This document shows, one piece after another, positions 5,745 through 37,501 of a DNA stretch of 64,000 bases. How positions within the stretch are numbered: the stretch's first letter is position 1; every line of letters begins with the position of its first letter. A program made the position numbers and the translations under genes. The stretch spans positions 1,671 to 65,670 of the forward strand of contig JBPOJQ010000018.1 of NCBI GenBank assembly GCA_052033375.1. Direction: 5' to 3'. Under the pieces are notes generated by a model, which saw nothing but the letters and a program-made list of their open reading frames with translations, did no database searches and was not told where the DNA came from. The stretch is from Candidatus Magasanikiibacteriota bacterium (GTDB lineage Bacteria > Patescibacteriota > Patescibacteriia > Magasanikbacterales > UBA922).

Positions 5745-6851
5745 TCAAGCCTTTTTCAAAAAACGTAAATACGCCTCAACAAACTCATCCAAATCTCCGT
5801 TCAAGATTGCATCAGTATCTGCGGTCTCATGTCTCGTACGCACATCTTTTACCATTTTATATGGCTGAAGAACATATGATCTGATCTGATTCCCCCATTC
5901 AGCACTTTTGTACTCTCCACGCAGTTTCAATCGTTCCTCCTCTTCCTTTTCTTCTTGAAGCTTGAGCAATTTTGAAAGCAATACTTTCATTGCAGTTTCT
6001 TTATTCTGTAATTGTGAACGTTCATTTTGACATTGTACCACAATTCCCGTGGGTATATGCACAATACGAACAGCGGAGTACGTCGTATTGACACTCTGTC
6101 CACCTTTTCCTCCGGACATAAACGTATCAATACGCAAATCTTTTGGATCGATAGTCACCGCATCAGCACTTTCTACTTCAGGAATTACTTCAATTAGCGC
6201 AAACGACGTATGTCGCATTTGTTCTGCGTCAAACGGAGAAATTCGTACTAGTCGATGTGTACCATGCTCAGATTTCAGATGTCCGTATGCATATCGTCCC
6301 TGAACACTAAATGTGACGGATTTGATTCCAGCCTCATTCCCACGCGATTCATCAATCATCGTCGTTGACCAACCTTTCTTCTCACAATAGCGCATGACCA
6401 TGCGTAGAAGCATCTCTGCCCAGTCCTGTGCTTCAGTCCCCCCACTACCCGCGTGAATAGAAACTATTGCCCCTAGCCTGTCGTGCTTTCCATTCATTAA
6501 AACCAAAAATTCCAATTTTTCAAATTTCTTTTCAAGCTCTTCTGTCTTTGTCACTACCTCTACCTCGAATGACTCATCTGGGCTTTCAACTAAATCTTGT
6601 GCAAATAAAAAAAGATCACGAGTTTCTTTCTGAAGTGTTTCCCACGTTTCAATCTCAGATACCAAATTTTCCCGCTGTTTTGACACCTGCCCAGCTCTGA
6701 CAGGGTCTGTCCAAAATCCCGGATCTTGCATGTTTTTTTCCAGATGAACCACTTGTTCCTTAAGCTCATCAATCCGAAGAAGTTTCCAGGTTTCTGAAAC
6801 CTTTCTCTGCAATTCTCCAAGTCGGTCAATTGTGTTAGTAAGTACACTCAT
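5745..6851 (-). CDS. prfB: peptide chain release factor 2
   Basis: 368 aa; GGQ motif (SGGKGGQSVNTTYSAVRIVHIPTGIVVQCQNERSQ), SPF tripeptide; single uninterrupted frame (no +1 frameshift site). Confidence 0.85.
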   Translation of the reverse strand: MSVLTNTIDRLGELQRKVSETWKLLRIDELKEQVVHLEKNMQDPGFWTDPVRAGQVSKQRENLVSEIETWETLQKETRDLFLFAQDLVESPDESFEVEVVTKTEELEKKFEKLEFLVLMNGKHDRLGAIVSIHAGSGGTEAQDWAEMLLRMVMRYCEKKGWSTTMIDESRGNEAGIKSVTFSVQGRYAYGHLKSEHGTHRLVRISPFDAEQMRHTSFALIEVIPEVESADAVTIDPKDLRIDTFMSGGKGGQSVNTTYSAVRIVHIPTGIVVQCQNERSQLQNKETAMKVLLSKLLKLQEEKEEEERLKLRGEYKSAEWGNQIRSYVLQPYKMVKDVRTRHETADTDAILNGDLDEFVEAYLRFLKKA

Positions 6852-7677: not shown

Positions 7678-9741
7678 CTAATTTAAGGTGCCACCCACTA
7701 CATCAGGATACCCGCTCCACCGAGGCTCCATTTTTTTAAGGTCAGTAAAGGTAATATCGAGAGGTTCACCTCCATATCCTCTAGTATCATACCCCCATAC
7801 AATTCCACTATCATGTACATCCTGTATGCTTCCTTGAGCATAACGATCAGTAACATTAGAAAATGTGCCTCTAACTTCATAGAGCACAGTTTCACCATTT
7901 TGAACTACACGATTACTCATACCCCCTGCACCCAAATTATCGAATAGAACCAAATTAACAAAACCAGTATATCCAGGAGTCTGAGTCTGAAGCCTATAAA
8001 CCCCGCTTACTGCAGTAGGCACTGCATACAAAGATATACACGATCCCGTACTTACACGGCATAATTTAGTGCTCGTTACATTTGCATCAGTTGCAAGTTG
8101 TAATTTCATACTCACCAAATATGCGCTCAGCGAATCACCAAGTACATCAGTATTTACACCAGAATCTGCAGTGACCGCAAAGGTAAAAAATGTTTGCTCA
8201 CCGCCTAAAAGATTGCCATTCTGGAAAGTTGATGCAACATTAGTAACCTGAGAACCAATTGAAGTCACTATTTTGGTGTAGACATTTTCAGTGGCAACCA
8301 CATTTTGTGGCAACAGATCTACACCAGACACAACACCCATAGCGGCTGTTTGAGCATCCTTAAGTCCAAAATTAAGGCTTACATTAGAAACTGCGGCACT
8401 GCTCGTATTAGATGCCGGTCCAATACGATTAAGTCCTACTCCAATATAGAGATATTTAGTTGTATTTTTTGACACAACATGATTCAAATTTTGAAACACA
8501 ACAGTACCAAGACTTGTTGGCATAATTCCAAGTGGTATAGTCATTGCAGAATCTTTATAAATCGTAATCGAATGAAACGTATTCTTTACATCAACCAAAG
8601 AGTCTGAAGATAATATATTCAACCCTAACTGTTTTATTTTTACATCTTCCCCAGAGGCACTGAGCTGTACTCTACCTATAAGATGCTTCTGTGTACCCGC
8701 AAGCACATAGTGATCATTTCGAAGACCCGTATAATTGGTATCAATTGTAGCATTCAAGTATGTCGAAGTCGGTGTTGCTGGTGTAGACGAAGCTGCGGCC
8801 TGTGTGACCATAACAGTCCTCGCTAGTCCTCCACTAACAACCGTGACGACCGCACTTCGAGTAGAAGCTACGGCATTTGCAGTATAGGAAACAGTTAGAC
8901 TTCCATTGTTTGAGCCATTGGCAGGTACAACCGTCAACCAATCCTGATTATCACTTACGGTCCAACTACGGTTTGAACTTATAGTAATAGTATTATTACT
9001 TCCTGCACTCGCTGGAACACTCACTGTTTCAGGAGAAACGGATAAAAATGGACTGCTCGTAACAGTAGACGAAGCTGCGGCCTGTGTGACCATAACAGTC
9101 TGAGTGATCGCTCCAGCAACAATCGTAACTACCCCACTTCGGCTGGAAGCAACACTGTTAGCGGTATAAGAAATTGAAAGTGTCCCATTATTTGAACCAG
9201 TCAAAGGTGAAACAGTCAACCAATCCTGATTATCACTTACATTCCAGCTAACACTTGACGATACAGCAACAGATGCATTACTACCAGCGGTTGATGGAAC
9301 ATCAAGCGTAGTAGGAAACACTGATAATGATCCCGTAGATGGAGGTGTTGAGGTTGCTACATTTACACATGCACCCTCCACACATTGATAATTAACCCCA
9401 GTTTGACCAATATTTAACTCTCCACAATTTTTCTGCCATGTTTGAAAACCCCGTTTTTTACACACACCCTCCATTACATACGTTTTTCCTGTAGTTGGAA
9501 ACGTATAACAACGATCAGTACTCGTACCACCATTATACGTCGTTGTTGATTTTACGAATAATTGCCTTTCATCAAAAGTTGCATCGACGGGTGCATCTAA
9601 ATCTCTACACCCCTGAAATTTATTATTGGTAGTCAACGCTGGGATGAATGCAAATGCACTTGCAACAGCAAGAAAAGCAGTTGCTACTGCTAATTTGGTA
9701 TTGGTCGAAGTTTTTGTTAACGTCGAAGTCATGGTATTCAT
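7678..9741 (-). CDS. secreted/surface protein with Cys-rich N-terminal module and two tandem BACON-like beta-sandwich repeats
   Basis: 687 aa; signal peptide; two ~93-aa repeats (…DNQDWLTV…GSNNG(T/S)L(S/T)(I/V)SYTANxVAS(S/T)RS…V…TQAAASST) visible also as nt-level tandem duplication near 8.80 and 9.08 kb. Confidence 0.55.
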   Translation of the reverse strand: MNTMTSTLTKTSTNTKLAVATAFLAVASAFAFIPALTTNNKFQGCRDLDAPVDATFDERQLFVKSTTTYNGGTSTDRCYTFPTTGKTYVMEGVCKKRGFQTWQKNCGELNIGQTGVNYQCVEGACVNVATSTPPSTGSLSVFPTTLDVPSTAGSNASVAVSSSVSWNVSDNQDWLTVSPLTGSNNGTLSISYTANSVASSRSGVVTIVAGAITQTVMVTQAAASSTVTSSPFLSVSPETVSVPASAGSNNTITISSNRSWTVSDNQDWLTVVPANGSNNGSLTVSYTANAVASTRSAVVTVVSGGLARTVMVTQAAASSTPATPTSTYLNATIDTNYTGLRNDHYVLAGTQKHLIGRVQLSASGEDVKIKQLGLNILSSDSLVDVKNTFHSITIYKDSAMTIPLGIMPTSLGTVVFQNLNHVVSKNTTKYLYIGVGLNRIGPASNTSSAAVSNVSLNFGLKDAQTAAMGVVSGVDLLPQNVVATENVYTKIVTSIGSQVTNVASTFQNGNLLGGEQTFFTFAVTADSGVNTDVLGDSLSAYLVSMKLQLATDANVTSTKLCRVSTGSCISLYAVPTAVSGVYRLQTQTPGYTGFVNLVLFDNLGAGGMSNRVVQNGETVLYEVRGTFSNVTDRYAQGSIQDVHDSGIVWGYDTRGYGGEPLDITFTDLKKMEPRWSGYPDVVGGTLN

Positions 9742-29428: not shown

Positions 29429-30736
29429 TTACTTCGCTTTGTCAAGATTCAAATCAAAAGTTTGTTTGAAAGATTGTGTAATATACGGAATATCACTAAT
29501 CATAATTGACTCATTATTATTAAAAAAACCATTCGTGCTCCAATTATTAGTTCCAAATGCTGCAATAGTACGATCGATCAATAACAAGTGGTGATGGAGG
29601 AAAGAATTAATATCTGTTTCATTGAACACGTCCCGAATTTCAATATTTCGTTTGTAATCAGTAAACACCTGTAAATTGTCCAGGGTATATAAGTCTTTCT
29701 GGGTAGTCAGCCATGGGAATGCAGAATCAGCTACAGAATAATTAGAATCATCAGTAAGTATAGTCAGCGGCAAACCTTCTTTACTTTTTTCAATAAAGGC
29801 CCGGGCAATAGTGCTGTCAGTCAAATTCCAAATCAAAACCTCAATTATTTTTTTAGCCTCAGTAATGAGACGTACAAAACGTGTACGCACACTTGTCATA
29901 TTCGTCGGAGCGGGTGTAAACCAAATTTCTATAAAGCCTTCCGGATAATTAAATAATGCAACATATGGATTACGTTCAGCCAAAGAACCTCCCGTATATA
30001 TACGATTGAATTCTCTACCAAATACCTCAATAATTTCAGGACGAGTGGTTTCTAATACAAAGCTTGGATCATACTTCTCCTGAAGAGAGGTGAAATTATA
30101 CGAACCGAAAAAAAGTTTTGCTGAAGCAAAATTTCGGTCAATGATGATGAACTTATGATGCATCGATCCCAGTGTGCCCTCAGCTCCTGCGTCTACACGC
30201 AATATATTTTGGGGTGGATTATAAAAAACCAAATCATGTGCTGCTTTCCGCTTCTCACTCAAAAGTAATTTAACCTCGACTCCACGTTGGGCAGCGCGAT
30301 AGAGTGCATCGCGTATCAATGGATGATCTATCGAATACACTGCCAACTCGATTTGTACGTCTGCGTCGTCTATCGCATCAATAATCAGAGATGAAAGATG
30401 TGTATTCCCAAAATCAGTATTAAAATATACATGTCCCGAAAACGATTCGGTGACTTGCATAGTCTGTGCAGGTACAAAAACTGAATCCCGAGATGGAATA
30501 TCTGTCGATACTACACGAGAATCCTGTGGTAATGCATACTCAACAATCTCCTGATCATGTGAACGTGTGAACACAAATATACCCACCAATGCGCATGCAA
30601 AAAATAATAAAAATATCGGAATAAACCAAACAAAAAAACGAGAAGTTGTGTGCGGAGGATCAAAGGATGGGTCTAATTTTGGTGCTAAGTTCATGCTGTT
30701 GGGTATAAGGTAAAAAATCATTGGCAGTATTCGCAA
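29429..30736 (-). CDS. phospholipase D (HKD) superfamily protein with N-terminal TM anchor
   Basis: first HKD: HHKFIIIDRNFASAKLFFGSYNFT; second degenerate HKD: HHHLLLIDRTIAAFGTNNWS; TM helix FVWFIPIFLLFFACALVGIFVF; 5' end overlaps upstream gene by 35-77 nt depending on start. Confidence 0.75.
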   Translation of the reverse strand: MRILPMIFYLIPNSMNLAPKLDPSFDPPHTTSRFFVWFIPIFLLFFACALVGIFVFTRSHDQEIVEYALPQDSRVVSTDIPSRDSVFVPAQTMQVTESFSGHVYFNTDFGNTHLSSLIIDAIDDADVQIELAVYSIDHPLIRDALYRAAQRGVEVKLLLSEKRKAAHDLVFYNPPQNILRVDAGAEGTLGSMHHKFIIIDRNFASAKLFFGSYNFTSLQEKYDPSFVLETTRPEIIEVFGREFNRIYTGGSLAERNPYVALFNYPEGFIEIWFTPAPTNMTSVRTRFVRLITEAKKIIEVLIWNLTDSTIARAFIEKSKEGLPLTILTDDSNYSVADSAFPWLTTQKDLYTLDNLQVFTDYKRNIEIRDVFNETDINSFLHHHLLLIDRTIAAFGTNNWSTNGFFNNNESIMISDIPYITQSFKQTFDLNLDKAK

Positions 30737-32417
30737 ATACCAACATGATCGACGTCGGAAGTGCCTGTCCCAATATGCGTATCATATCAATAATACGAGG
30801 ATATTGTAAATCAAGCCAAAAATTATCAATAACCAACACCGGTCGACCGGTGACCAACGAATGAAGTGCATGCAATGCAAAGGCCTGTAATGGATTTCTA
30901 AGTACGGTGTCCGCAGATACAGTATAATTTCCATCGGCCGACACAAGATCCACAATGGAAGGATAGCGATTCATGATACGAAGTGCCTCGGCAAATTCTT
31001 CAGTCGTAATACGGTCTCTTAATTTTCCCATCACGCACTCCATGAGCGTGCGATCAGTCCGAAAATTAGGATCAAAAAAATACACATCACCACACACACT
31101 CTGCCATGCCGTAAATTCAAATCGTTTGGCATCCACAGTGACTTTTATTGCACGCGGATTGTACGCCGTAACGCCAGCAAATAATCGTGCCAACGCAGTC
31201 TTGCCAGTCATATTTGACCCAAAAAATAATACACGGTCACCTGGATTAAAGCCAAAACGGATGTTTCTATGATATGACCCCTCTGAAAAAAGTTTGGTCT
31301 TATGGCTATAAAATCCGAGACTTTTTTCTCTCAGACTACAGGTGGTATCTGCGGTGAGATGCGCACTCGATTGAAAGACAGTCAAAGAAATACCCAACCG
31401 AGCAGGAAATATATAGAGCCCCATTCGCATGGACTCATGTAGCGCACGAGAAAAATAAATAAGTAACAATATGAATAAAAATCGTTCACCACTATCCCCT
31501 GTTCCTAAAAAAGAAAAAAATATTGTAGGAAAAAAATGACTACAAATAGATACGACGACCAAAAAGATAAACACCATCTTGAAACCGAGACGCATCCAAA
31601 TATCTCGACGTATACGGAAAAAAGAATCAAACAGTACCAGTTTATCGAACTTACTGAGAACCGAATCTTGTTGTCGAAATATATTCAAAAAACTAATATT
31701 AGTAGTATTGATATCCATTTCTCTGATAATCTGCGAATAAAACGTAACCTCTTGCGACACATACAATCGTGACACTGCATACCCACCGAAAAATAAAAGT
31801 GCTGACACTAGCACAAATACACCTACAACAGAAAAAACATGGTACTGACTAATTGTTGAAATCAACACTACAATTCCCAAATACATCAACCAGCGCCAGA
31901 ACCCAAAAAAAGTATTAGATACACCAAGGGTAGCAAGTGGCAAATGATAAGAAATCTTTGCAATGAGATTTGCGTGTGTATCTGAAGAAAAATACCTAGA
32001 TGAACGTCCAAGAAAATGCTTAAAAATACGTCGCCTAATGCTATTCGTGAACAGAACCACGAATAACCGTTCATATTTGATGGCAAAAAAAGAATTAACT
32101 AAAAATATACCAATAAGCACTAAAAATAATAATACAAAATGTGTAGACAACCAGAGGCGCGTCCCATCCGAAATCTGATCACGGCTAAAAATAATCAACG
32201 CAGACTCAATAATACCCTGAGAAAACAGTAGCAGTAGTAAGCCGATAATCAACACGCGATGTTTTTTTAAAAAATCACGAAGAAACTGATAATGTTCGCG
32301 AGTAAATAACACATTTCTCCATTCACGACTCTCTTTTTTCGCCAATCTAAGAAGCCGCGCCTGTTCCCGAATCTGTGTACTAAACATAGTAAGATACTCT
32401 ATGTGTATTATTCTCAA
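30660..32417 (-). CDS. ABC-transporter-like fused TMD-NBD protein with degenerate signature and Walker B motifs
   Basis: about 6 TM helices then Walker A GSNMTGKTALARLFAG; LSGGQ replaced by NPLQAF; Walker B VLVIDNF (D-N instead of D-E); start overlaps RT stop (ATGA). Confidence 0.55.
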   Translation of the reverse strand: MRIIHIEYLTMFSTQIREQARLLRLAKKESREWRNVLFTREHYQFLRDFLKKHRVLIIGLLLLLFSQGIIESALIIFSRDQISDGTRLWLSTHFVLLFLVLIGIFLVNSFFAIKYERLFVVLFTNSIRRRIFKHFLGRSSRYFSSDTHANLIAKISYHLPLATLGVSNTFFGFWRWLMYLGIVVLISTISQYHVFSVVGVFVLVSALLFFGGYAVSRLYVSQEVTFYSQIIREMDINTTNISFLNIFRQQDSVLSKFDKLVLFDSFFRIRRDIWMRLGFKMVFIFLVVVSICSHFFPTIFFSFLGTGDSGERFLFILLLIYFSRALHESMRMGLYIFPARLGISLTVFQSSAHLTADTTCSLREKSLGFYSHKTKLFSEGSYHRNIRFGFNPGDRVLFFGSNMTGKTALARLFAGVTAYNPRAIKVTVDAKRFEFTAWQSVCGDVYFFDPNFRTDRTLMECVMGKLRDRITTEEFAEALRIMNRYPSIVDLVSADGNYTVSADTVLRNPLQAFALHALHSLVTGRPVLVIDNFWLDLQYPRIIDMIRILGQALPTSIMLVFANTANDFLPYTQQHELSTKIRPIL

Positions 32418-33634
32418 TTTCGTTCATAATGAAAATTCTTATAATGCTGATAAAATGAGACAATACCAAATTCAGCAATCTCGTTCTTTAATAAGCGTCG
32501 ATGTTGCGGAGAATACTGTCCATAGTAAAACTCAGTAAGAATATGAAAAAAATGCTCAGAAACCACGCGTATCTGAGTAACGTCATTCACCTGCGATTTA
32601 TTCTTAACAATCTCCTGAAATCGAGTATTAAAATTTTTGTATTTACTGCGCATGATATTTTTGAGAATACGTTTTTTCTTTGTTTCTGACTCATGTTTAT
32701 AAAGCAGTAAACTTTTCCACTCGGACTCAATACGGGTGATAAAACTATCTTCAAGACTAATACGCCCATTCGAAAACCGATATCCCAAAAAAGAAAAAGT
32801 GTCTCGGGAAGATCCAATGAACAATTTATCAAAATTAAGCTTCAAGCCTCTCATGTGCAACCTGGCCTGTATGTCCTTCTCTATAACTTTCAATTTTTCA
32901 AGATTTGAATCAACGAGCGCCAAATCATCACCTACACGTATATAAAACTCTACTTGTCTAGCATACAAAAAATCAAGATCAGAGAGATATATATTAGCAA
33001 ACAAAGCAATCAATGGTACACCCTGTACAATTCCGTGGGGTAATTGCTGTATAGTATGACCGTCGTATACACGAGTAAAAACAAACAATTTTAGTATCTC
33101 CAATGTGTGACGATCGGAAAATAATGTGGCCAATTTTTCAACCAAATATTCACGATCAATTAAACTCGAATAATTATGTAAATCCACCACAAGACAATGA
33201 TCAGAAGTAAACCGCCTACGATATCGACGCGCAAAAAGATATGATGCGGTATGCGGAGGTTTACCGGGACGATATGAGAAAAGACGATCAGAAAAACTGC
33301 GTTCAAAAACTGGTAACACCACTCGGTAAATTGCCTGCGCTTTGATTCGTTCCTTGAGTGTATAAATAAAAATCTCACGGGTTTTAGACGGATTATTTTT
33401 CTTTGGAATATGCAACAAAATAGCAGGTTCGATGACTTTTGTATGTATCAATTCATCCTGGATACGGCTCAACAGATCAGTCGAATCAACCTCATAATCC
33501 AATATTTTTTTGTGATCAATGCCGTAATATCGGGACTCCTTACTTTCTTTCGCAAATTTTTGGACAATCTCCAAATATGCAGCCTCCAAATTATCTTTGG
33601 ATATGATTTCTCTAAACATACAATATACAATCAT
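32414..33634 (-). CDS. stand-alone reverse transcriptase (RT domains 1-7 plus about 100-aa C-terminal extension)
   Basis: NLEAAYLEI (RT0/1), SYRPGKPPHTA (RT2), HGIVQGVPLIALFANIYLSDLD (RT4), EFYIRVGDDLALV (motif C with VGDD instead of YADD), LKLNFDKLFIGSSRDTFSFLGYRF (RT7). Confidence 0.8.
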   Translation of the reverse strand: MIVYCMFREIISKDNLEAAYLEIVQKFAKESKESRYYGIDHKKILDYEVDSTDLLSRIQDELIHTKVIEPAILLHIPKKNNPSKTREIFIYTLKERIKAQAIYRVVLPVFERSFSDRLFSYRPGKPPHTASYLFARRYRRRFTSDHCLVVDLHNYSSLIDREYLVEKLATLFSDRHTLEILKLFVFTRVYDGHTIQQLPHGIVQGVPLIALFANIYLSDLDFLYARQVEFYIRVGDDLALVDSNLEKLKVIEKDIQARLHMRGLKLNFDKLFIGSSRDTFSFLGYRFSNGRISLEDSFITRIESEWKSLLLYKHESETKKKRILKNIMRSKYKNFNTRFQEIVKNKSQVNDVTQIRVVSEHFFHILTEFYYGQYSPQHRRLLKNEIAEFGIVSFYQHYKNFHYERN

Positions 33635-33731
33635 CCCCTAATATATCTGACAGATTTCTATCAAATATTGATTATTTCCATTGAGGTCTTCCTTCGCTTA
33701 ATACCGAAGTTCTTTTCCTAAAATCGTCGAC

Positions 33732-33772
33732 ATTTCATGAAAGCTAATGCCGATAGCTATGTATTTCATGAA
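33732..33772 (-). promoter_or_regulatory. palindromic leader element upstream of RT
   Basis: two copies of the self-complementary octamer TTCATGAA (33734-33741, 33765-33772) flanking inner palindrome AGCTA-atgccga-TAGCT. Confidence 0.3.
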
Positions 33773-33952
33773 CCCAGACGACTGCTGGCATCCTGTTATG
33801 ACAAGTGTTAGGGAATGATTGTACAGAGTACGTTATATAAGATAATACAACTAGTATACCGTGAAGTCTCTATATCTGCCAACTCAATATTCAAAAATGA
33901 ACGATGCCACACCCACCTATCCGAAAATAGAGCAGGTGTGGACATCAGTCAG

Positions 33953-34360
33953 CTATGCGCCGAGGGCGCACGCGAAACGAATCTCTTCATCAGTCGCACG
34001 ACGGACGCAGGCGAGGAGGGCATTGACCCATTCCACGCACACGTATGACTCACCGGGGACAAGCCCCTTCGGCGCGAACATACGACACGGACGACGATGC
34101 GAATTCTTGAAGTAGAAGTAAGCCTCACCGAGCCGAGGACGACGGCCCCGATCCTGGAAGATCGGGTAGAAGACCGGAGTATTCGGAAACTGAGAGGCAT
34201 TCACACTGGGAAACGCACGGGCCTCGGGCGGGAGGAGGAACACACGACCCTTAGCAAAAAGGACCGAGGGGGACCAACTCGACGGAGGCACAGGACGGAG
34301 ACCATTATTCCCATCAGTCTGGATCGCCACCCCGGGATTATCTTCCGGATGACACAGCAT
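33953..34360 (-). other. GC-rich block upstream of RT: either orphan 135-aa ORF or structured ncRNA
   Basis: about 58% GC versus 38% background; open in several frames on both strands; minus-strand ORF MLCHPEDNPG… has G-rich RBS (AAGGGGGG-7 nt-ATG) 44 nt downstream of predicted TSS but no recognisable family. Confidence 0.3.
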
Positions 34361-34404
34361 ACAGAAACCCCCCTTGCACAGCCACGCTGGTGATTCAGCG
34401 AGAC

Positions 34405-34440
34405 CAACACAAGATAGATGAAAAAGATGATATTGTCAAG
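34405..34440 (-). promoter_or_regulatory. near-consensus sigma70 promoter firing into the GC-rich block toward the RT
   Basis: minus-strand TTGACA (34434-34439) – 17 nt – TATCTT (34411-34416). Confidence 0.5.
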
Positions 34441-34480
34441 AATAAAAAATAAAAAAGTGACCCAAGTAAATCACTTTTTA
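34441..34480 (-). terminator. intrinsic terminator of ydeI-like gene
   Basis: AAAAAGTGA-cccaagtaaa-TCACTTTTT then T-run on minus strand. Confidence 0.5.
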
Positions 34481-34516
34481 TTCCCCATGTGATGCACAAA
34501 AAACGAAAAAATCACC

Positions 34517-34765
34517 TCAGCGATGCGGACACCCGGCCCAACAACACGGTCGACGCATTCCACCTGCAAGTTTCGAAAGTGCCTTCTCAATACGAATATC
34601 TCTCGTCTCCTGTTTTTTACCAGATGTAACCCAACAAATCCACTCGTTCTTCGCGAGTGGTGTGATGTCGTCCCACACAGCCCGTGCCTTGGGTACAGAA
34701 ATCAAGGCCTTTCGTAAATCTGCTGGAACTTGATGCACCATACGAGTAGTGACTTTTTTATTCAT
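34517..34765 (-). CDS. YdeI/OmpD-associated family (DUF1801-like) small protein, GC-rich
   Basis: start at MNKKVTT; C-terminal KNEWICWVTSGKKQETRDIRIEKALSKLAGG typical of this family. Confidence 0.5.
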   Translation of the reverse strand: MNKKVTTRMVHQVPADLRKALISVPKARAVWDDITPLAKNEWICWVTSGKKQETRDIRIEKALSKLAGGMRRPCCWAGCPHR

Positions 34766-34842
34766 AATCAAATAGTTTATTTTGAAAAAGTATATCATAA
34801 TCCAAACCAACTATTCCAGCACAAAAACACTATATTTTCATG

Positions 34843-34886
34843 GCTCCACGTGGTGGACGATGTTCGAACGTATTTTATGGAAAATA
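34843..34886 (-). repeat. 44-bp cassette R1 copy 1 (putative shared promoter/operator)
   Basis: gctccacgtggtggacgatgttcgaacgtattttatggaaaata identical to 36678-36721; contains palindromes CCACGTGG and GTTCGAAC and TAAAAT; about 80-120 nt upstream of ydeI-like start. Confidence 0.6.
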
Positions 34887-35008
34887 CAAATTAAATTTCC
34901 TACATATAAACAAAAACAACCCATCTATATGAGTTGTTTTATGTATTGGCCGACGATTCTGGTACGTCGGCCGGGTAACCTTGCCAAATCCTTGGCAAGA
35001 GGACAGAA

Positions 35009-35443
35009 CTATGGCTGCGACACAAGCACTGCTTTTGGCCAGTTCACGAGAACAGCTCCCGTGATGACGAGCACCAGTCCGATGGTCTTCATAGGAGTCA
35101 TACTACCATTCTCCATCAGGTAGTGAACTACCGAAGCAACGAGCTGGGCCACGAGCAGCACCACAAAGAGGGGTGCTAGATCTTGAGGCGGTGTTGACGC
35201 CAACACGTAGTTGAACATGATCAGAGCGACACCCGCTGTGACACCTGCAGCGATCGCGAACCCCAGACGAGCACCGCTGATCGTGATGCCGTTGTACACG
35301 GCGACCGGCATGACGACACAGAAACAGACTATGGTGAAGGCTGCTGCCGCATTCGTACCGCTCATGCGGCTCATATTCATGAAGATGGGCCACACGCCGA
35401 ACAGCAGGCCGGCGATAATGGTAAGCAATAATCCGGAACTCAT
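35009..35443 (-). CDS. small DMT/EamA-like 4-TM membrane protein, GC-rich
   Basis: 144 aa, four hydrophobic helices, Ala/Val-rich. Confidence 0.4.
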   Translation of the reverse strand: MSSGLLLTIIAGLLFGVWPIFMNMSRMSGTNAAAAFTIVCFCVVMPVAVYNGITISGARLGFAIAAGVTAGVALIMFNYVLASTPPQDLAPLFVVLLVAQLVASVVHYLMENGSMTPMKTIGLVLVITGAVLVNWPKAVLVSQP

Positions 35444-35568
35444 GTGAATCTCCCTTGCTCAGTTTCCAGCACTGATGAGGCCGCCGACAATTCGACGAGC
35501 TCATGTAGTTACAGAAGAAAAAAAAGAATAGCACTAAAATGCTATTCTTGTCAACGCTCCATACATAA

Positions 35569-36222
35569 TTATTTTTCGCCATTCCACTCTTGAAAAAATC
35601 TCTCCAGATATTGTTCCATAAAAATATGTCGCTCCGTTGCAATTTTTTTCGCGGTTTCCGTATTCATCAAATCTTTCAACAAAAGAAGTTTTTCATAAAA
35701 ATGATTTATTGCACTCCCGTCATTACTTTTATATTCATCTTTGGTCATGTTAGGTTTGAACTTTTTGTCTGGGTTATAAATCTCTCTCCCTTTACTTCCC
35801 CCATAGGTAAAACATCGAGCAATCCCCATTGCACCCATTGCATCTAGTCTATCAGCATCCTGAACAATTTTCCCCTCAATAGATTTCATTTTATTTTCGT
35901 GCACATTTCCCTTAAAAGAAACGTGATTCACAATATGCACAACTTTTTCAATGACTTCCGGATCACAATTACATTTTTCCAGCCATTCACCAGCAGTTTT
36001 TCCACCAATCTCTTCATCTCCATTATGAAACTTATAATCTGCAATATCATGCAACAGTGCGCCAAGTTCCACAATAAATAAATCCGCCTTTTCACCCTCA
36101 GCAATCAACTTCGCATTATTCCAAACTCTCTGAATATGCCACCAATCATGCCCAGATCCTTCTCCACTCAACACCTGTTTCACATGTTGCTTAGTTGCTT
36201 CAATAATTTCTTCTTTTGTCAT
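35569..36222 (-). CDS. HD-domain phosphohydrolase (YpgQ-like)
   Basis: H…HD motif (WWHIQRV…LGALLHDIADYK), D…DRLDAMGA. Confidence 0.75.
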   Translation of the reverse strand: MTKEEIIEATKQHVKQVLSGEGSGHDWWHIQRVWNNAKLIAEGEKADLFIVELGALLHDIADYKFHNGDEEIGGKTAGEWLEKCNCDPEVIEKVVHIVNHVSFKGNVHENKMKSIEGKIVQDADRLDAMGAMGIARCFTYGGSKGREIYNPDKKFKPNMTKDEYKSNDGSAINHFYEKLLLLKDLMNTETAKKIATERHIFMEQYLERFFQEWNGEK

Positions 36223-36237
36223 AATAAAAAATATAAA

Positions 36238-36573
36238 CTAAGAAGTCTTTTTCCACTGCCCATCAATAAAGTCTGCGACATTATGACCGCCAACAGGAAA
36301 ACTGTCCGCATCATAAAAAACAACGTTAATAACACTGTTTAAAGCTGATCCTTCTTTATACTTACCCGCTCTCATATAGGTGTATTCTGATGTAGTACCG
36401 TCTTCCTCAGTAGTAGTAAGTTCTAATAAATAAAGACCCTTTTCATCTTCACGTCTTCTCGTTTCTTTATATTCTTTTTCTCCAATTATTTCTTTAACAA
36501 TCGAAACTACTTCTTCTGGCGAAGGGATATATTCTCTGCTTCCTTCATAACCACTTGGACCTGTTTCAGACAT
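36238..36573 (-). CDS. hypothetical acidic protein
   Basis: 111 aa, co-directional and 16 nt upstream of HD gene. Confidence 0.35.
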   Translation of the reverse strand: MSETGPSGYEGSREYIPSPEEVVSIVKEIIGEKEYKETRRREDEKGLYLLELTTTEEDGTTSEYTYMRAGKYKEGSALNSVINVVFYDADSFPVGGHNVADFIDGQWKKTS

Positions 36574-36643
36574 AGTACATGAATAAATAAATTAACCTGA
36601 TGTAAATGTATCACACCAACTTAAAATAAAATATACGCTAAAA

Positions 36644-36682
36644 AAATAATGACTCAATATAGCCATTATTTTAAGTCGCTCC
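36644..36682 (-). terminator. terminator hairpin R2 copy 1 (after methyltransferase gene)
   Basis: AAAATAATGaCT-caatat-AGCCATTATTTT plus T-run on minus strand; 36/40 identical to 37394-37433. Confidence 0.5.
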
Positions 36683-36721
36683 ACGTGGTGGACGATGTTC
36701 GAACGTATTTTATGGAAAATA
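36678..36721 (-). repeat. 44-bp cassette R1 copy 2, upstream of hyp–HD–EamA-like operon
   Basis: identical to 34843-34886. Confidence 0.6.
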
Positions 36722-36744
36722 GACTAAGTATGCTCGATAAATAG

Positions 36745-37344
36745 CTATATCTTCTGCAAAACAATTGTAAACCACTTCTGCCCTCGTAGCTCATGAGTAT
36801 CTTCAAATATAGTCTTATATTTATCACCAGCTAATTCTTTTATAATTTCCGGATTATACAAATAGTAAGTCCTCGTACCAAACTCATCTGTTTTAGTTAG
36901 CTCACGATAGTCATCATATTTCAATGAAATATAAAAAACACCTTTCTCATTCAACCCATGATGTGCTTTCTCTAATACGCTTCGCACACTTTCTTTGTTT
37001 GAGTGTAGAAGGGAAGCAAAAGAAAAAATTAAATCTAAACCCATTGGAAAAACATAGTTTTCAATATCCACAACTTCAAACTTTCCCTCTGGAACGTATT
37101 CACAAGCAAGTGCGATCATTGCTTCTGAAATATCTACGCCAAGGTAATTATGAGAGTATGTAAGTATTTCTTTAGCGTCCCTTCCATTACCACAGCCAAT
37201 TTCAAAAACGAAAGGACTTTTCTTTTCAACAAACGAAAACCCTCTTTCGATGTCATCGGTGCGAGCACCGATATTATTGAATTTTTCTGCCATTGCAGAA
37301 GCTGTGGCGTTATAAGTATTTATTGTTTGAACTTTTTTATTCAT
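36745..37344 (-). CDS. class I SAM-dependent methyltransferase
   Basis: motif I VFEIGCGNGRDAKEIL. Confidence 0.7.
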   Translation of the reverse strand: MNKKVQTINTYNATASAMAEKFNNIGARTDDIERGFSFVEKKSPFVFEIGCGNGRDAKEILTYSHNYLGVDISEAMIALACEYVPEGKFEVVDIENYVFPMGLDLIFSFASLLHSNKESVRSVLEKAHHGLNEKGVFYISLKYDDYRELTKTDEFGTRTYYLYNPEIIKELAGDKYKTIFEDTHELRGQKWFTIVLQKI

Positions 37345-37393
37345 ATGGATGCGTAATAAGTTAATGAAATAATACCATGGGCTATATAAAAAT

Positions 37394-37433
37394 AAAATAA
37401 TGGCTCAATGTAGCCATTATTTTACTTCGCTCC
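37394..37433 (-). terminator. terminator hairpin R2 copy 2 immediately 3' of tRNA-Asn
   Basis: AAAATAATGGCT-caatgt-AGCCATTATTTT then ATTTTTAT. Confidence 0.5.
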
Positions 37434-37501
37434 TCGACCAGGATTCGAACCTGGAACCTACTGGTTAACAGCCAGCCGTTCTACCATTGAACTATCGAGG
37501 A
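37430..37501 (-). tRNA. tRNA-Asn (GTT)
   Basis: cloverleaf: acceptor TCCTCGA/TCGAGGA, D-arm GTTC-AATGGTA-GAAC, anticodon loop CTGTTAA, T-arm CCAGG-TTCGAAT-CCTGG. Confidence 0.85.

What the first reader, a model, noticed from the sequence alone, without database searches (positions are those of the whole stretch)
33860..34440. GC-rich 550-bp block with a near-consensus promoter immediately upstream of the RT: candidate RT-associated ncRNA or orphan gene
Local GC is about 58% versus about 38% for the genome, and the block is open in multiple frames on both strands, which is typical of GC-rich non-coding or structured RNA. On the RT strand there is TTGACA-17-TATCTT (34439-34411) firing into the block right after the ydeI-like terminator. 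The only protein-like frame (135 aa, G-rich RBS) has no recognisable family. Defence RTs (DRT2/9, retrons) use a structured ncRNA template encoded 5' of the RT in the same transcript, and this block plus the 230-nt palindrome-rich leader (33732-33772) would fit that layout. Alternatively it is part of a GC-rich horizontally acquired island that continues through the ydeI-like and EamA-like genes to about 35.45 kb.
Basis: partly seen in the sequence, partly recalled or inferred. Interest (0 to 1): 0.65.

Follow-up and report, generated by a model that had tools for sequence, protein, structure and literature searches.

The report
GC-rich gene; RT RNA lies beside
The GC-rich block is an ordinary but very rare small protein-coding gene unrelated to the reverse transcriptase, while the real RT-linked structured RNA is the AT-rich, pseudoknotted ~210-nt leader next to it, conserved across many candidate-phyla-radiation bacteria and in no RNA catalogue searched.

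Summary
The GC anomaly is real. Window 33905-34400 is 58-59% GC in a 40.6% GC genome, the highest 500-nt window of the 64 kb.

It is not an RT-associated RNA. It is a 135-aa protein gene (33953..34360, minus strand) with its own promoter-like site, SD and hairpin. Homologues exist (56% and 46% identity, same length), dN/dS is about 0.45, and the predicted beta-barrel core is confident. Its fold energy equals that of shuffled sequence (z -0.8). None of 48 homologous RT loci carries it, and a relative that has the OmdA-ORF135 pair lacks the RT module.

The conserved RT-linked element is the 36% GC leader 33622..33835 (minus strand):
- Fold z is -7.3.
- A covariance model finds it directly before the RT in 27 of 48 loci.
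- 49 of 56 pairs show compensatory changes.
- A pseudoknot that was not modelled also covaries.
- Its 16-bp closing helix covers the RT ribosome-binding region.

Leader, group-II-like RT (motif C xGDD), ABC-like membrane ATPase and PLD nuclease form a conserved module in Patescibacteria. Neither Rfam 15 nor the papers searched describe it.

Its "orphan gene" alternative is correct.

The parts
33905..34400 (.). GC-rich block (58-59% GC), the finding itself
   Evidence: Composition profiles. It is the highest-GC 500-nt window of the 64 kb.
33953..34360 (-). ORF135: a 135-aa protein gene of a rare unannotated family, with a disordered N-terminus (1-29), a small beta-barrel and a C-terminal helix. 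It fills the GC-rich block.
   Evidence: Homologues P0121 (56% identity, E 6e-30) and P0122 (E 1.5e-23), plus three weaker ones. dN/dS is 0.42-0.49 and codon position 3 is the least conserved. The AF2 core has pLDDT 83-94. No Pfam, NCBIfam, PADLOC, PHROGs, PDB or BFVD match.
34411..34439 (-).
   Evidence: This is a consensus match only. It lies just after the OmdA terminator-like hairpin.
34368..34373 (-). Shine-Dalgarno-like GGGGGG, 7 nt before the ORF135 ATG
   Evidence: Read from the sequence.
33907..33941 (-). Hairpin CCACACC...GGTGTGG 12 nt after the ORF135 stop codon. It is terminator-like, with an imperfect U tract.
   Evidence: Read from the sequence. The terminator scan did not call it.
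34517..34810 (-). OmdA/YdeI-like gene, the conserved upstream partner of ORF135
   Evidence: Pfam PF13376, E 2.6e-18. An OmdA gene precedes the ORF135 homologue in L049, L050, L051 and L053.
33853..33882 (-). Promoter-like site TTGGCA-18-TATACT of the leader/RT transcript. The -10 box is conserved in homologous loci.
   Evidence: TATACT/TATGCT aligns in the window and L001-L007.
33622..33835 (-). Structured leader RNA of the RT (36% GC): 5' tail, helices P1-P7 and a pseudoknot. This is the real RT-associated RNA.
   Evidence: MFE z -7.27. RNAalifold on an unfitted MAFFT alignment: 23 of 45 pairs compensatory. CM R1 matches it before the RT in 27 of 48 loci. 92.8% of cells paired against 38-48% when slid, and 49 of 56 pairs compensatory. 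No Rfam hit at E<=1.
33808..33823 (-). P1 5' strand, UACAAUCAUUCCCUAA
   Evidence: 13 of 16 P1 pairs show changes on both sides.
33626..33641 (-). P1 3' strand, UUAGGGGAUGAUUGUA. It covers the purine-rich ribosome-binding region and the upstream ATG (33634), and ends 6 nt before the annotated RT start (33619).
   Evidence: The NCBI protein P0001 is 401 aa, which corresponds to a start at 33619.
33786..33791 (-). Pseudoknot 5' strand (AUGCCA; AUGCCG in relatives)
33747..33752 (-). Pseudoknot 3' strand (CGGCAU, in the P5 loop)
   Evidence: 99.4% paired against 19-51% when slid. Four covarying variants. The pseudoknot was not part of the CM.
32414..33634 (-). Reverse transcriptase (401 aa from 33619, or 406 aa from 33634). 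Group-II-intron-like, free-standing, with motif C RVGDD.
   Evidence: RVT_1, E 9e-14. TIGR04416 118 bits against a cut-off of 300. The PDB profile search gives GsI-IIC RT as best hit, 115 bits. xGDD is invariant in 38 homologues.
30660..32417 (-). ABC-transporter-like membrane protein with a divergent ATPase domain. It overlaps the RT stop by 4 nt.
   Evidence: Weak ABC_membrane and ABC_tran hits. It follows the RT in all 48 loci.
29429..30736 (-). PLD-family (HKD) nuclease-like protein, the third gene of the module
   Evidence: PLDc_2, E 2.7e-33; NucT- and DrmC-like hits. Present in 46 of 48 loci; in the other two the contig ends first.

Best explanation
The GC-rich block is a small protein-coding gene, ORF135 (33953..34360, minus strand). 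It appears to be an independent transcription unit, with a promoter-like site, a strong SD and a hairpin after the stop codon. It is the downstream partner of the OmdA/YdeI-like gene and sits in a variable cargo region between tRNA-Asn and the RT module.

Its product has a disordered N-terminus followed by a small OB/S1-like beta-barrel and a C-terminal helix. I infer, with low confidence, a small soluble binding protein that works with OmdA. The high GC, including GC3 of 0.6-0.8, is a trait of the whole gene family inside roughly 40% GC genomes. It most likely marks a cassette that moves horizontally among these genomes.

The block is not part of the reverse-transcriptase system. The RT-associated RNA is the adjacent AT-rich leader (33622..33835), which has its own conserved promoter-like site. 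It folds into a 16-bp closing helix P1, six further helices and a pseudoknot.

P1 buries the RT ribosome-binding region. I infer that the RT binds this RNA. That would autoregulate RT translation, as group II intron RTs do at DIVa, and would use the RNA as scaffold or template for cDNA synthesis, as in DRT2, DRT9, DRT10 and retrons. The co-conserved ABC-like membrane ATPase and PLD nuclease would be the effectors.

Shown: the block is coding, the block is not linked to the RT, the RNA structure and its linkage to the RT, and the conservation of the operon. Inferred: every functional step.
For: Block is a coding gene.
- Exhaustive HMMER finds same-length homologues with a conserved N-terminus and conserved motifs.
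- dN/dS is 0.42-0.49 and position 3 is the least conserved.
- AF2 gives pLDDT 83-94 over residues 30-135.
- SD and promoter-like site are present.
- MFE z is only -0.83.

Block is not RT-linked.
- No blastn, nhmmer, tblastn or tblastx match in 48 RT loci.
- L001 has the leader (91% identical) and the RT (83% identical) but no GC-rich block.
- L052 and L053 have OmdA and the ORF135 homologue, then continue at window 29382. The whole module from 29429 to about 33880 is absent there.
- No RT is seen next to any ORF135 homologue.

GC richness is a family trait. The genes are 61-64% GC with GC3 0.70-0.82, in contigs of 39-46% GC.

Leader.
- MFE z is -7.27.
- Covariation is seen on an alignment not fitted to the structure.
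- The CM finds it in 27 of 48 loci. In 25 of them the match ends at or within about 15 nt of the RT match start.
- 92.8% of cells are paired, and 49 of 56 pairs show compensatory changes.
- The pseudoknot, which was not modelled, covaries.
- In L010 the leader is followed by a terminator and two pilin genes before the RT, so there it can be made as a stand-alone RNA.

RT, ABC-like and PLD genes occur together in 46 of 48 loci.
Against: No expression data exist for either unit. The ORF135 family is tiny, with 5 credible relatives, so selection estimates are noisy and dS is saturated (above 1). The hairpin after ORF135 has no clean U tract, so read-through from the ORF135 promoter into the leader cannot be excluded.

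The covariation counts come from a CM-fitted alignment, which favours the model. Searches are not affected by this.

The leader could be purely cis-regulatory. No template, priming site or cDNA product is identifiable from sequence. In L025-L027 the P1-like helix ends about 35 nt before the start codon, so occlusion of the ribosome-binding region is not universal. Some loci (L016, and the RT-proximal copy in L011) lack the P3-P5 domain.
Confidence: 0.85

Rival explanations
1. The GC-rich block is a long structured ncRNA, or an RT template, transcribed from the 34439 promoter and read through into the RT. It would be analogous to DRT2 or DRT9 ncRNAs or to retron msr-msd.
For: It lies 5' of the RT on the same strand and follows a near-consensus promoter-like site. 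It is GC-rich and open in several frames. The hairpin after ORF135 is not a textbook terminator.
Against: It is absent from all 48 homologous RT loci. Its folding energy equals that of shuffles (z -0.83). It is conserved as a protein with the codon-position pattern of a coding gene. Its homologues occur without an RT. A conserved promoter-like site and the true structured RNA lie downstream of it.
Confidence: 0.03
2. The block is a decaying fragment of horizontally acquired GC-rich DNA, a pseudogene with no present function.
For: The composition is foreign. GC3 in the window copy (0.61) is lower than in its relatives (0.70-0.82), as expected for amelioration. An open frame of this length occurs in 5.6% of shuffles. 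The surrounding hotspot holds other GC-rich inserts, one of which (L003) has no recognisable gene.
Against: The ORF is intact, with the same length and N-terminus as homologues at 43-56% identity. dN/dS is below 0.5. The predicted fold is confident. SD and promoter-like site are retained. Synteny with OmdA is conserved in four other contigs.
Confidence: 0.07
3. The leader is only a cis-acting 5' UTR, a riboswitch or protein-binding translational operator that controls the RT-ABC-PLD operon. It is not a template or scaffold for reverse transcription.
For: P1 pairs the ribosome-binding region and the upstream ATG with the 5' end of the RNA. The leader is contiguous with the RT in almost all loci. 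A pseudoknotted multi-helix fold of about 200 nt is typical of riboswitches. Group II intron RTs autoregulate through an RNA site that holds their own RBS (established knowledge; Singh et al. 2002, cited from memory).
Against: In L010 the leader is followed by a terminator and is separated from the RT by 2 kb, yet it scores best in its clade. L011 carries two copies. In L025-L027 the P1-like helix does not reach the start codon. All characterised stand-alone bacterial RTs with a conserved 5' structured RNA use it as template or scaffold (PMC9226505; bioRxiv 10.64898/2026.04.29.721553).
Confidence: 0.3
4. The GC richness of ORF135 is itself selected, because the locus has a second function at the RNA or DNA level, for example an antisense transcript or ORF, or a recombination or recognition site.
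For: GC3 is 0.56-0.82 in every family member, in genomes of about 40% GC, even though the proteins have diverged by about 50%. No homologue was found in any GC-rich genome. The exact antisense frame is fully open in L049, L052 and L055.
Against: Open antisense frames are expected at high GC3. There is no excess RNA folding on either strand. Neighbouring cargo genes in the same hotspots are also GC-rich (EamA 55% in the window, PNP in L002, a 108-aa ORF in L052). That pattern fits repeated import from GC-rich donors better.
Confidence: 0.05

Closest known systems
DRT2 (UG2), DRT9 (UG28) and DRT10 (UG17): stand-alone RT with a structured ncRNA, plus a membrane effector in DRT10
   Same: A structured RNA of about 200 nt lies immediately 5' of a stand-alone RT and has its own promoter. 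A basal closing stem is present, as described for DRT10. In DRT10 a membrane protein is the third component. PADLOC gives weak RT similarity (UG17 86 bits, Drt9 60, Drt2 38).
   Different: By the best hits, the RT belongs to the group-II-like lineage and not to UG/Abi class 2. The RNA has no Rfam match. The partners are an ABC-like ATPase and a PLD nuclease, not SLATT. No template motif or cDNA product is known. The hosts are Patescibacteria. None of this applies to the GC-rich block.
Group II intron RT (IEP) and its high-affinity RNA site DIVa
   Same: The closest sequence relatives of the RT are group II intron RTs (GsI-IIC RT 115 bits; TIGR04416 118 bits). As at DIVa, the RT's own ribosome-binding region is part of a helix in its cognate RNA. 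This suggests translational autoregulation.
   Different: No intron RNA is present. There is no Rfam group-II D1-D4 or domain V/VI hit at E<=1. There is no room 3' of the RT, because the next gene overlaps its stop codon. The score is far below the equivalog cut-off (118 against 300). Motif C is xGDD, not YADD.
Retron msr-msd ncRNA
   Same: The RNA lies 5' of the RT and is closed by a long helix between its two ends (P1, 16 bp). This resembles the a1/a2 repeats.
   Different: The RT is not of the retron clade (Ec86 RT 32 bits). No conserved branching G follows the 5' strand of the closing helix (alignment). The 3' strand of P1 overlaps the RT initiation region.
G2L (group II intron-like) free-standing RTs such as G2L4
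   Same: A free-standing RT related to group II RTs, with no intron RNA and domesticated into a chromosomal operon. This matches the description of G2L RTs in PMC8632793.
   Different: Similarity to G2L4 is only distant (38 bits). G2L4 has no reported cognate structured RNA and no ABC or PLD partners. Motif C is xGDD, against YIDD in G2L4.
For ORF135: small OB, S1, IF1 or TRAM-like beta-barrel proteins
   Same: The predicted all-beta barrel with a terminal helix gives weak Foldseek hits to eIF2alpha S1, IF1A, NfeD-C and TRAM domains.
   Different: No hit is significant (best E 0.25 in PDB and 0.098 in BFVD; TM at most 0.31). There is no sequence-family match in four HMM libraries. Membership of any of these folds is not established.

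Membership tests
RT-associated ncRNA (as claimed for the GC-rich block) | The element is conserved next to homologous RTs | tested here: not met
   No blastn, nhmmer, tblastx or tblastn match to the block in 48 RT loci. L001 lacks any GC-rich block.
RT-associated ncRNA (as claimed for the GC-rich block) | Stable or conserved secondary structure beyond what the composition gives | tested here: not met
   MFE z is -0.83 on the RT strand and -0.89 on the other strand, the same as a GC-rich coding control.
Protein-coding gene (ORF135) | Homologues conserved at the protein level under purifying selection | tested here: met
   P0121 (E 6e-30) and P0122 (E 1.5e-23) have the same length. dN/dS is 0.42-0.49 and identity at codon positions 1/2/3 is 0.61/0.62/0.45. 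AF2 core pLDDT is 83-94.
RT-associated structured RNA (leader 33622-33835) | Conserved position next to the RT, and base-pair covariation | tested here: met
   CM hits end at the RT start in 25 of 48 loci; two further loci carry the RNA, L010 2 kb upstream and L041 about 10 nt upstream of the RT match start. 49 of 56 pairs are compensatory. 23 of 45 pairs are compensatory on an unfitted alignment. The pseudoknot covaries.
Any Rfam 15 family | A covariance-model match | tested here: not met
   No match at E<=1 in 30000-37000 on either strand.
Group II intron | Intron RNA domains I-VI flanking the RT ORF | tested here: not met
   No Rfam group-II hits. The ABC-like gene overlaps the RT stop codon, which leaves no 3' domain V/VI.
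Group II intron | RT/maturase equivalog (TIGR04416) | tested here: not met
   118.5 bits against a cut-off of 300.
DRT2 (UG2) | RT matches the Drt2 equivalog | tested here: not met
   NF041746 scores 35 bits against a cut-off of 390. PADLOC Drt2 scores 38 bits.
DRT9 (UG28) / DRT10 (UG17) / UG26 | RT is a member of the group, with a full-length, high-scoring HMM match | tested here: inconclusive
   UG26 113 bits, UG17 86, Drt9 60. All are partial and weaker than a generic RT model at 130 bits. The usual partners (YcjD endonuclease for UG26, SLATT for UG17) are absent from the operon.
UG38 (the CPR-borne UG group of Mestre et al. 2022) | RT clusters with UG38 | not tested
   No UG38 model appeared among the 25 listed PADLOC hits. 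No reference sequence was at hand. PMC9226505 places UG38 in CPR genomes.
Retron | Retron-clade RT, and a branching G after the a2 repeat | tested here: not met
   Ec86 RT scores 32 bits, against 115 for group II RTs. No conserved G follows the P1 5' strand.
Diversity-generating retroelement | A template repeat/variable repeat pair near the RT | tested here: not met
   The repeat scan of the whole window reported no copy of any part of 33600-34450 beyond one 30-42 nt, 74-77% complementary AT-rich match at each edge. Self-blastn found none.

The most novel reading that the evidence does not exclude
The leader, the RT, the ABC-like ATPase and the PLD nuclease form a previously undescribed RT-based system, widespread in Patescibacteria. 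In it, a group-II-like RT with an RdRP-like xGDD active site uses its own pseudoknotted leader as scaffold or template, and a membrane ATPase and a nuclease act as effectors. The module is itself a gain/loss cassette, since a close relative lacks it. Separately, ORF135 would belong to a GC-rich gene family endemic to AT-rich CPR genomes, and its composition would be maintained for a reason that is not yet understood.
Probability: 0.4. Interest if true: 0.75.

Novelty: new variant of a known kind. Interest (0 to 1): 0.5.

Why it matters
For the flagged block the result is sobering. A striking GC island next to an RT turns out to be an unrelated small cargo gene. Composition and multi-frame openness alone should not be read as a sign of structured RNA.

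The follow-up does reveal something useful: a well-supported new structured RNA. It has seven helices and a covarying pseudoknot, is about 210 nt long, and is tied to a conserved three-gene RT module in at least 48 species-level Patescibacteria genomes. It is absent from Rfam 15 and from the papers I could search.

RT-plus-ncRNA systems (retrons, DRT2, DRT9, DRT10) have each yielded a new mechanism of cDNA synthesis and new tools. A group-II-like RT with an invariant xGDD motif, a cognate RNA that hides its own ribosome-binding site, and membrane and nuclease partners is a concrete candidate that can be tested in a heterologous host. It comes from a lineage that cannot be cultured.

Tried and rejected
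- Rfam scan of 30000-37000 at E<=1: nothing.
- blastn of the block against plasmid and phage collections: nothing.
- Word-indexed protein search with the stop-to-stop 160-aa frame: nothing. Only the exhaustive HMMER search found relatives. A profile search then added no members beyond four already known.
- DGR hypothesis (TR/VR pair): rejected, because no repeat of the region exists.
- Group II intron remnant hypothesis for the block (domains I-III upstream of an intron ORF): rejected. There are no Rfam hits, there is no space for domains V/VI, and the block is coding.
- A CxxCH motif (CMLCH) spans the ORF135 start in the extended frame. I considered a truncated cytochrome c and dropped the idea, because homologues start at the same Met and lack the motif.
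The 20 most distant loci were therefore examined only with MFE z-scores. Twelve of the 20 have z <= -4, and they show recurrent motifs of other leader types.
- Literature searches for this RT system or RNA in CPR genomes found no description.
Full report
**1. The observation**

The window is 40.6% GC. Every 200-nt window between 33900 and 34399 is 59% GC, while the flanks are 32-44%. A finer profile puts the edges at about 33905 and 34400. Among all 500-nt windows of the 64 kb (mean 40.6%, sd 3.6%), the one starting at 33901 is the maximum, at 58.4%.

The promoter-like TTGACA-17-TATCTT at 34439-34411 on the minus strand exists. So do the 135-codon ORF 33953..34360 on the minus strand and the open frames on both strands. 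Openness by itself is weak evidence. The plus strand is only 13.9% T, and 5.6% of shuffles reach the observed 158-codon open stretch.

**2. What the block is**

*2.1 First searches.* Pfam, NCBIfam and PADLOC give nothing for ORF135. A word-indexed search of 5.8 billion proteins also gives nothing.

*2.2 Homologues.* An exhaustive HMMER search of 1.84 billion cluster representatives finds seven hits.
- Two are strong and of the same length: P0121 (140 aa, 56% identity, E 6e-30) and P0122 (145 aa, E 1.5e-23).
- Three are weaker but align well: P0123, P0125 and P0126.
- They share the N-terminal Met region and several motifs: FLLP..AR..PS.NA..P.TP, FYFK, RMFAP.G..PG and ACVR.AT.EE.

*2.3 Selection.* Codon alignments give dN/dS of 0.42-0.49 for the three closest pairs. 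Nucleotide identity is 0.61, 0.62 and 0.45 at codon positions 1, 2 and 3. That is the signature of a coding sequence.

*2.4 Predicted structure.* AlphaFold2 with this six-sequence alignment predicts residues 30-135 at pLDDT 83-94. The fold is an all-beta barrel followed by a C-terminal helix. Foldseek against PDB and BFVD, and PHROGs, give no significant match. Only faint OB/S1/IF1-like hits appear.

*2.5 Gene signals.* The ORF fills the GC-rich block. It has GGGGGG 7 nt before its ATG and a hairpin 12 nt after its stop codon.

*2.6 RNA folding.* The block folds no better than dinucleotide shuffles: z is -0.83 on the RT strand and -0.89 on the other. This matches a GC-rich coding control, the EamA gene, at z -0.2.

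The block is therefore a protein gene of a very rare, unannotated family.

**3. Is the block linked to the RT?**

The RT (RVT_1) has more than 120 homologues in Patescibacteria. I fetched 48 species-level genomic loci.

*3.1 The block is missing from RT loci.* blastn and nhmmer with the 886 nt upstream of the RT match only its last 200 nt or so, window 33635-33841:
- L001 at 91% identity
- L002 at 84%
- L003 at 80%
- L004-L008 more weakly

The block itself has no blastn, tblastx or tblastn match in any RT locus. L001 (RT 83% identical) has no GC-rich stretch upstream at all. L002 has a different GC-rich insert, a PNP_UDP_1 phosphorylase gene on the opposite strand. L003 has yet another insert.

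*3.2 ORF135 homologues occur without an RT.* They lie in seven contigs, L049-L055.
- In L049, L050, L051 and L053 an OmdA/YdeI gene precedes them, as in the window.
- No RT is seen next to any of them.
- L052 and L053 are decisive. Their DNA aligns to the window through OmdA and ORF135 (34786-33983) and then resumes at window 29382-29205. That relative lacks the whole stretch from the leader promoter to the PLD stop codon (about 33880-29429).

ORF135 therefore exists without the RT, and the RT exists without ORF135.

**4. The GC richness**

In every contig but one, the ORF135-family gene is far richer in GC than its surroundings. The genes are 61-64% GC with GC3 of 0.70-0.82, while the contigs are 39-46% GC. 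The exception is L054 (gene 50%, rest 45%, GC3 0.56). The window copy has GC3 of 0.61.

No member was found in a GC-rich genome. Other cargo in the same region is also GC-rich:
- EamA in the window, 55% GC with GC3 0.67
- the PNP gene in L002
- a 108-aa ORF in L052

The simplest reading is repeated import of foreign cassettes into a hotspot. Why this family stays GC-rich despite about 50% protein divergence is unexplained.

**5. The hotspot**

tRNA-Asn lies at 37429-37501 on the minus strand. Copies of a 45-80 nt unit occur at 37391-37436, 36640-36721 and 34828-34886. The unit consists of a tRNA-3'-half-like sequence, in two of the three copies followed by a terminator hairpin. The same unit separates single cargo genes in L049 and L051. 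This looks like serial integration at the tRNA gene. OmdA-ORF135 follows the last copy.

**6. What is RT-linked: the leader**

*6.1 First evidence of structure.* The conserved 200 nt directly upstream of the RT align with obvious compensatory changes. RNAalifold on a plain MAFFT alignment of 10 loci predicts 45 pairs, and 23 of them have changes on both sides. The window sequence 33835..33622 folds with z = -7.27.

*6.2 Covariance model.* I built a model with seven helices. It matches the window and 27 of the 48 loci over its full length, at E from 1e-58 to 6e-6. In 25 of them the match ends at or within about 15 nt of the RT match start.

*6.3 Covariation on the 29-sequence alignment.*
- 92.8% of cells are paired, against 38-48% when partners are slid by 1-3 columns.
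- 49 of 56 pairs show compensatory changes.
- The covariation score is 0.596, against 0.08-0.12 in the slid controls.
- This alignment is fitted to the model, which favours these numbers.

*6.4 Pseudoknot.* The pseudoknot was not in the model, so it is an independent test. AUGCCG (33791-33786) pairs with the P5 loop CGGCAU (33752-33747). It appears as four covarying variants:
- AUGCCG / CGGCAU
- AUAUUA / UAAUAU
- AUAUCA / UGAUAU
- GUGUUA / UAACAC

99.4% of cells are paired, against 19-51% when slid, and 5 of 6 pairs are compensatory.

*6.5 P1 and the RT start.* The 16-bp closing helix P1 pairs 33823-33808 with 33641-33626. The latter is the purine-rich stretch UUAGGGGAUGAUUGUA. It ends 6 nt before the annotated RT start (33619; the NCBI protein is 401 aa) and contains the alternative ATG at 33634.

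*6.6 Promoter.* A promoter-like TTGGCA-18-TATACT (33882-33853) lies between ORF135 and the leader. Its -10 box is conserved in relatives.

*6.7 Novelty of the RNA.* Rfam 15 has no match at E<=1.

*6.8 The other 20 loci.* In 12 of them the 235 nt upstream of the RT fold with z <= -4, using mononucleotide shuffles. They show other recurrent motifs, for example hairpins with CCGUUUGG or CCGUUAAGG loops. The RNA therefore seems to diversify along with the RT.

**7. The module**

An ABC-like membrane protein with a divergent ATPase follows the RT in all 48 loci. A PLD/HKD nuclease-like protein follows that in 46 loci; the other two contigs end first.

By profile search against PDB sequences, the RT family scores:

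| PDB relative | bits |
|---|---|
| GsI-IIC RT (group II intron) | 115 |
| Cas6-RT-Cas1 | 99 |
| a 499-aa RNA-dependent DNA polymerase (9ioa) | 58 |
| DRT2 | 50 |
| G2L4 | 38 |
| Ec86 retron RT | 32 |

The RT is far below the group II equivalog cut-off (118 bits against 300). No intron RNA is present. Motif C is invariably R[VILC]GDD rather than YxDD in 38 homologues.

**8. Mechanism**

Shown:
- ORF135 is a coding gene that is not linked to the RT.
- The leader is a conserved pseudoknotted RNA attached to the RT gene.
- P1 covers the RT initiation region.
- The leader, the RT, the ABC-like protein and the PLD protein form a conserved module that can be gained or lost.

Inferred, by analogy with two known cases. 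The first is group II intron RTs binding DIVa, which holds their own RBS (from memory: Singh et al. 2002). The second is the ncRNAs of DRT2, DRT9 and DRT10 (PMC9226505; bioRxiv 10.64898/2026.04.29.721553). On this basis the RT would bind the leader. That would limit its own translation and would use the RNA as scaffold or template. The membrane ATPase and the nuclease would be effectors.

Two observations favour a role beyond cis regulation.
- In L010 the leader is followed by an intrinsic terminator and two pilin genes before the RT, yet it keeps the best score of its clade.
- L011 has two copies of the leader.

A purely cis-regulatory role remains a serious rival (about 0.3).

**9. Comparison and novelty**

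The block belongs to no RNA family and to no annotated protein family. It is an ordinary, though rare, cargo gene.

The leader-RT module works like the known RT-plus-5'-ncRNA systems. It fails the membership tests for retrons, group II introns and DRT2. The tests for DRT9, DRT10 and UG26 are inconclusive. I found no description of it in Rfam or in the paper library.

I rate the whole as a new variant of a known kind. Interest is low for the block itself and moderate to high for the adjacent RNA and its module.

Noticed in passing
window 29429-33882; L052:461-1195, L053: The whole module (leader, RT, ABC-like gene, PLD gene; about 4.45 kb) is missing in a related genome. That genome keeps OmdA-ORF135 on one side and the sequence homologous to window 29382-29205 on the other, and has a GC-rich 108-aa ORF in its place. 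The RT module is therefore itself a gain/loss cassette.
   Followed up: partly
window 32414-33634 (RT residues 231-237): Motif C of this RT family is invariably R[V/I/L/C]GDD in 38 homologues, instead of the Y-x-DD of other RTs. Two homologues even carry precomputed Pfam RdRP hits (PF00680, PF04196).
   Followed up: partly
window 34828-34886, 36640-36721, 37391-37436 (tRNA-Asn 37429-37501): Three copies of a tRNA-3'-half-like unit (two followed by a terminator hairpin), including a 44-nt exact repeat, delimit single-gene or few-gene cassettes (methyltransferase; the 111-aa gene, HD and EamA). The same unit separates cargo genes in L049 and L051. This looks like a tandem integration array at tRNA-Asn. 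No integrase was seen.
   Followed up: partly
L010:3814-6017: The leader RNA is followed by a 7-codon remnant of the RT start, an intrinsic terminator and two tandem type-IV-pilin-like genes. The RT starts 2 kb further on, without a leader.
   Followed up: partly
L011:5511-5704 and 5814-6000; L016, L037: L011 has two tandem leader copies. The RT-proximal copy lacks the P3-P5 domain and so lacks the pseudoknot. L016 lacks that domain too, and so may L037, although L037 contains masked Ns.
   Followed up: no
window 34517-34810 and 33953-34360, compared with L053: The adjacent genes diverge very unequally between the window and L053. OmdA is 93% identical at the protein level, while ORF135 is only 56% identical. 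This suggests allelic replacement or fast evolution of ORF135.
   Followed up: no
L029-L048, about 235 nt upstream of the RT: Distant RT clades have other strongly folding leaders (z down to -8.8). They carry recurrent hairpins with CCGUUUGG or CCGUUAAGG loops and a GCUAAUGCCGG motif. These are probably two further RNA types related to the window's leader.
   Followed up: partly
L002:4795-5682; L003:5400-5750; window 35009-35443: Other GC-rich inserts sit in the same variable region: a PNP_UDP_1 phosphorylase gene (L002), a 350-nt block with no recognisable gene (L003), and the EamA-like gene in the window (55% GC, GC3 0.67).
   Followed up: partly
window 8783-9045 and 9065-9327: Two adjacent 263-nt direct repeats, 71% identical. 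They were not examined.
   Followed up: no
L001, L002, L004-L006 and other record titles: Many MAG records that carry this Patescibacteria-type locus are titled 'uncultured Gammaproteobacteria bacterium'. This is probably a mislabelling at deposition.
   Followed up: no
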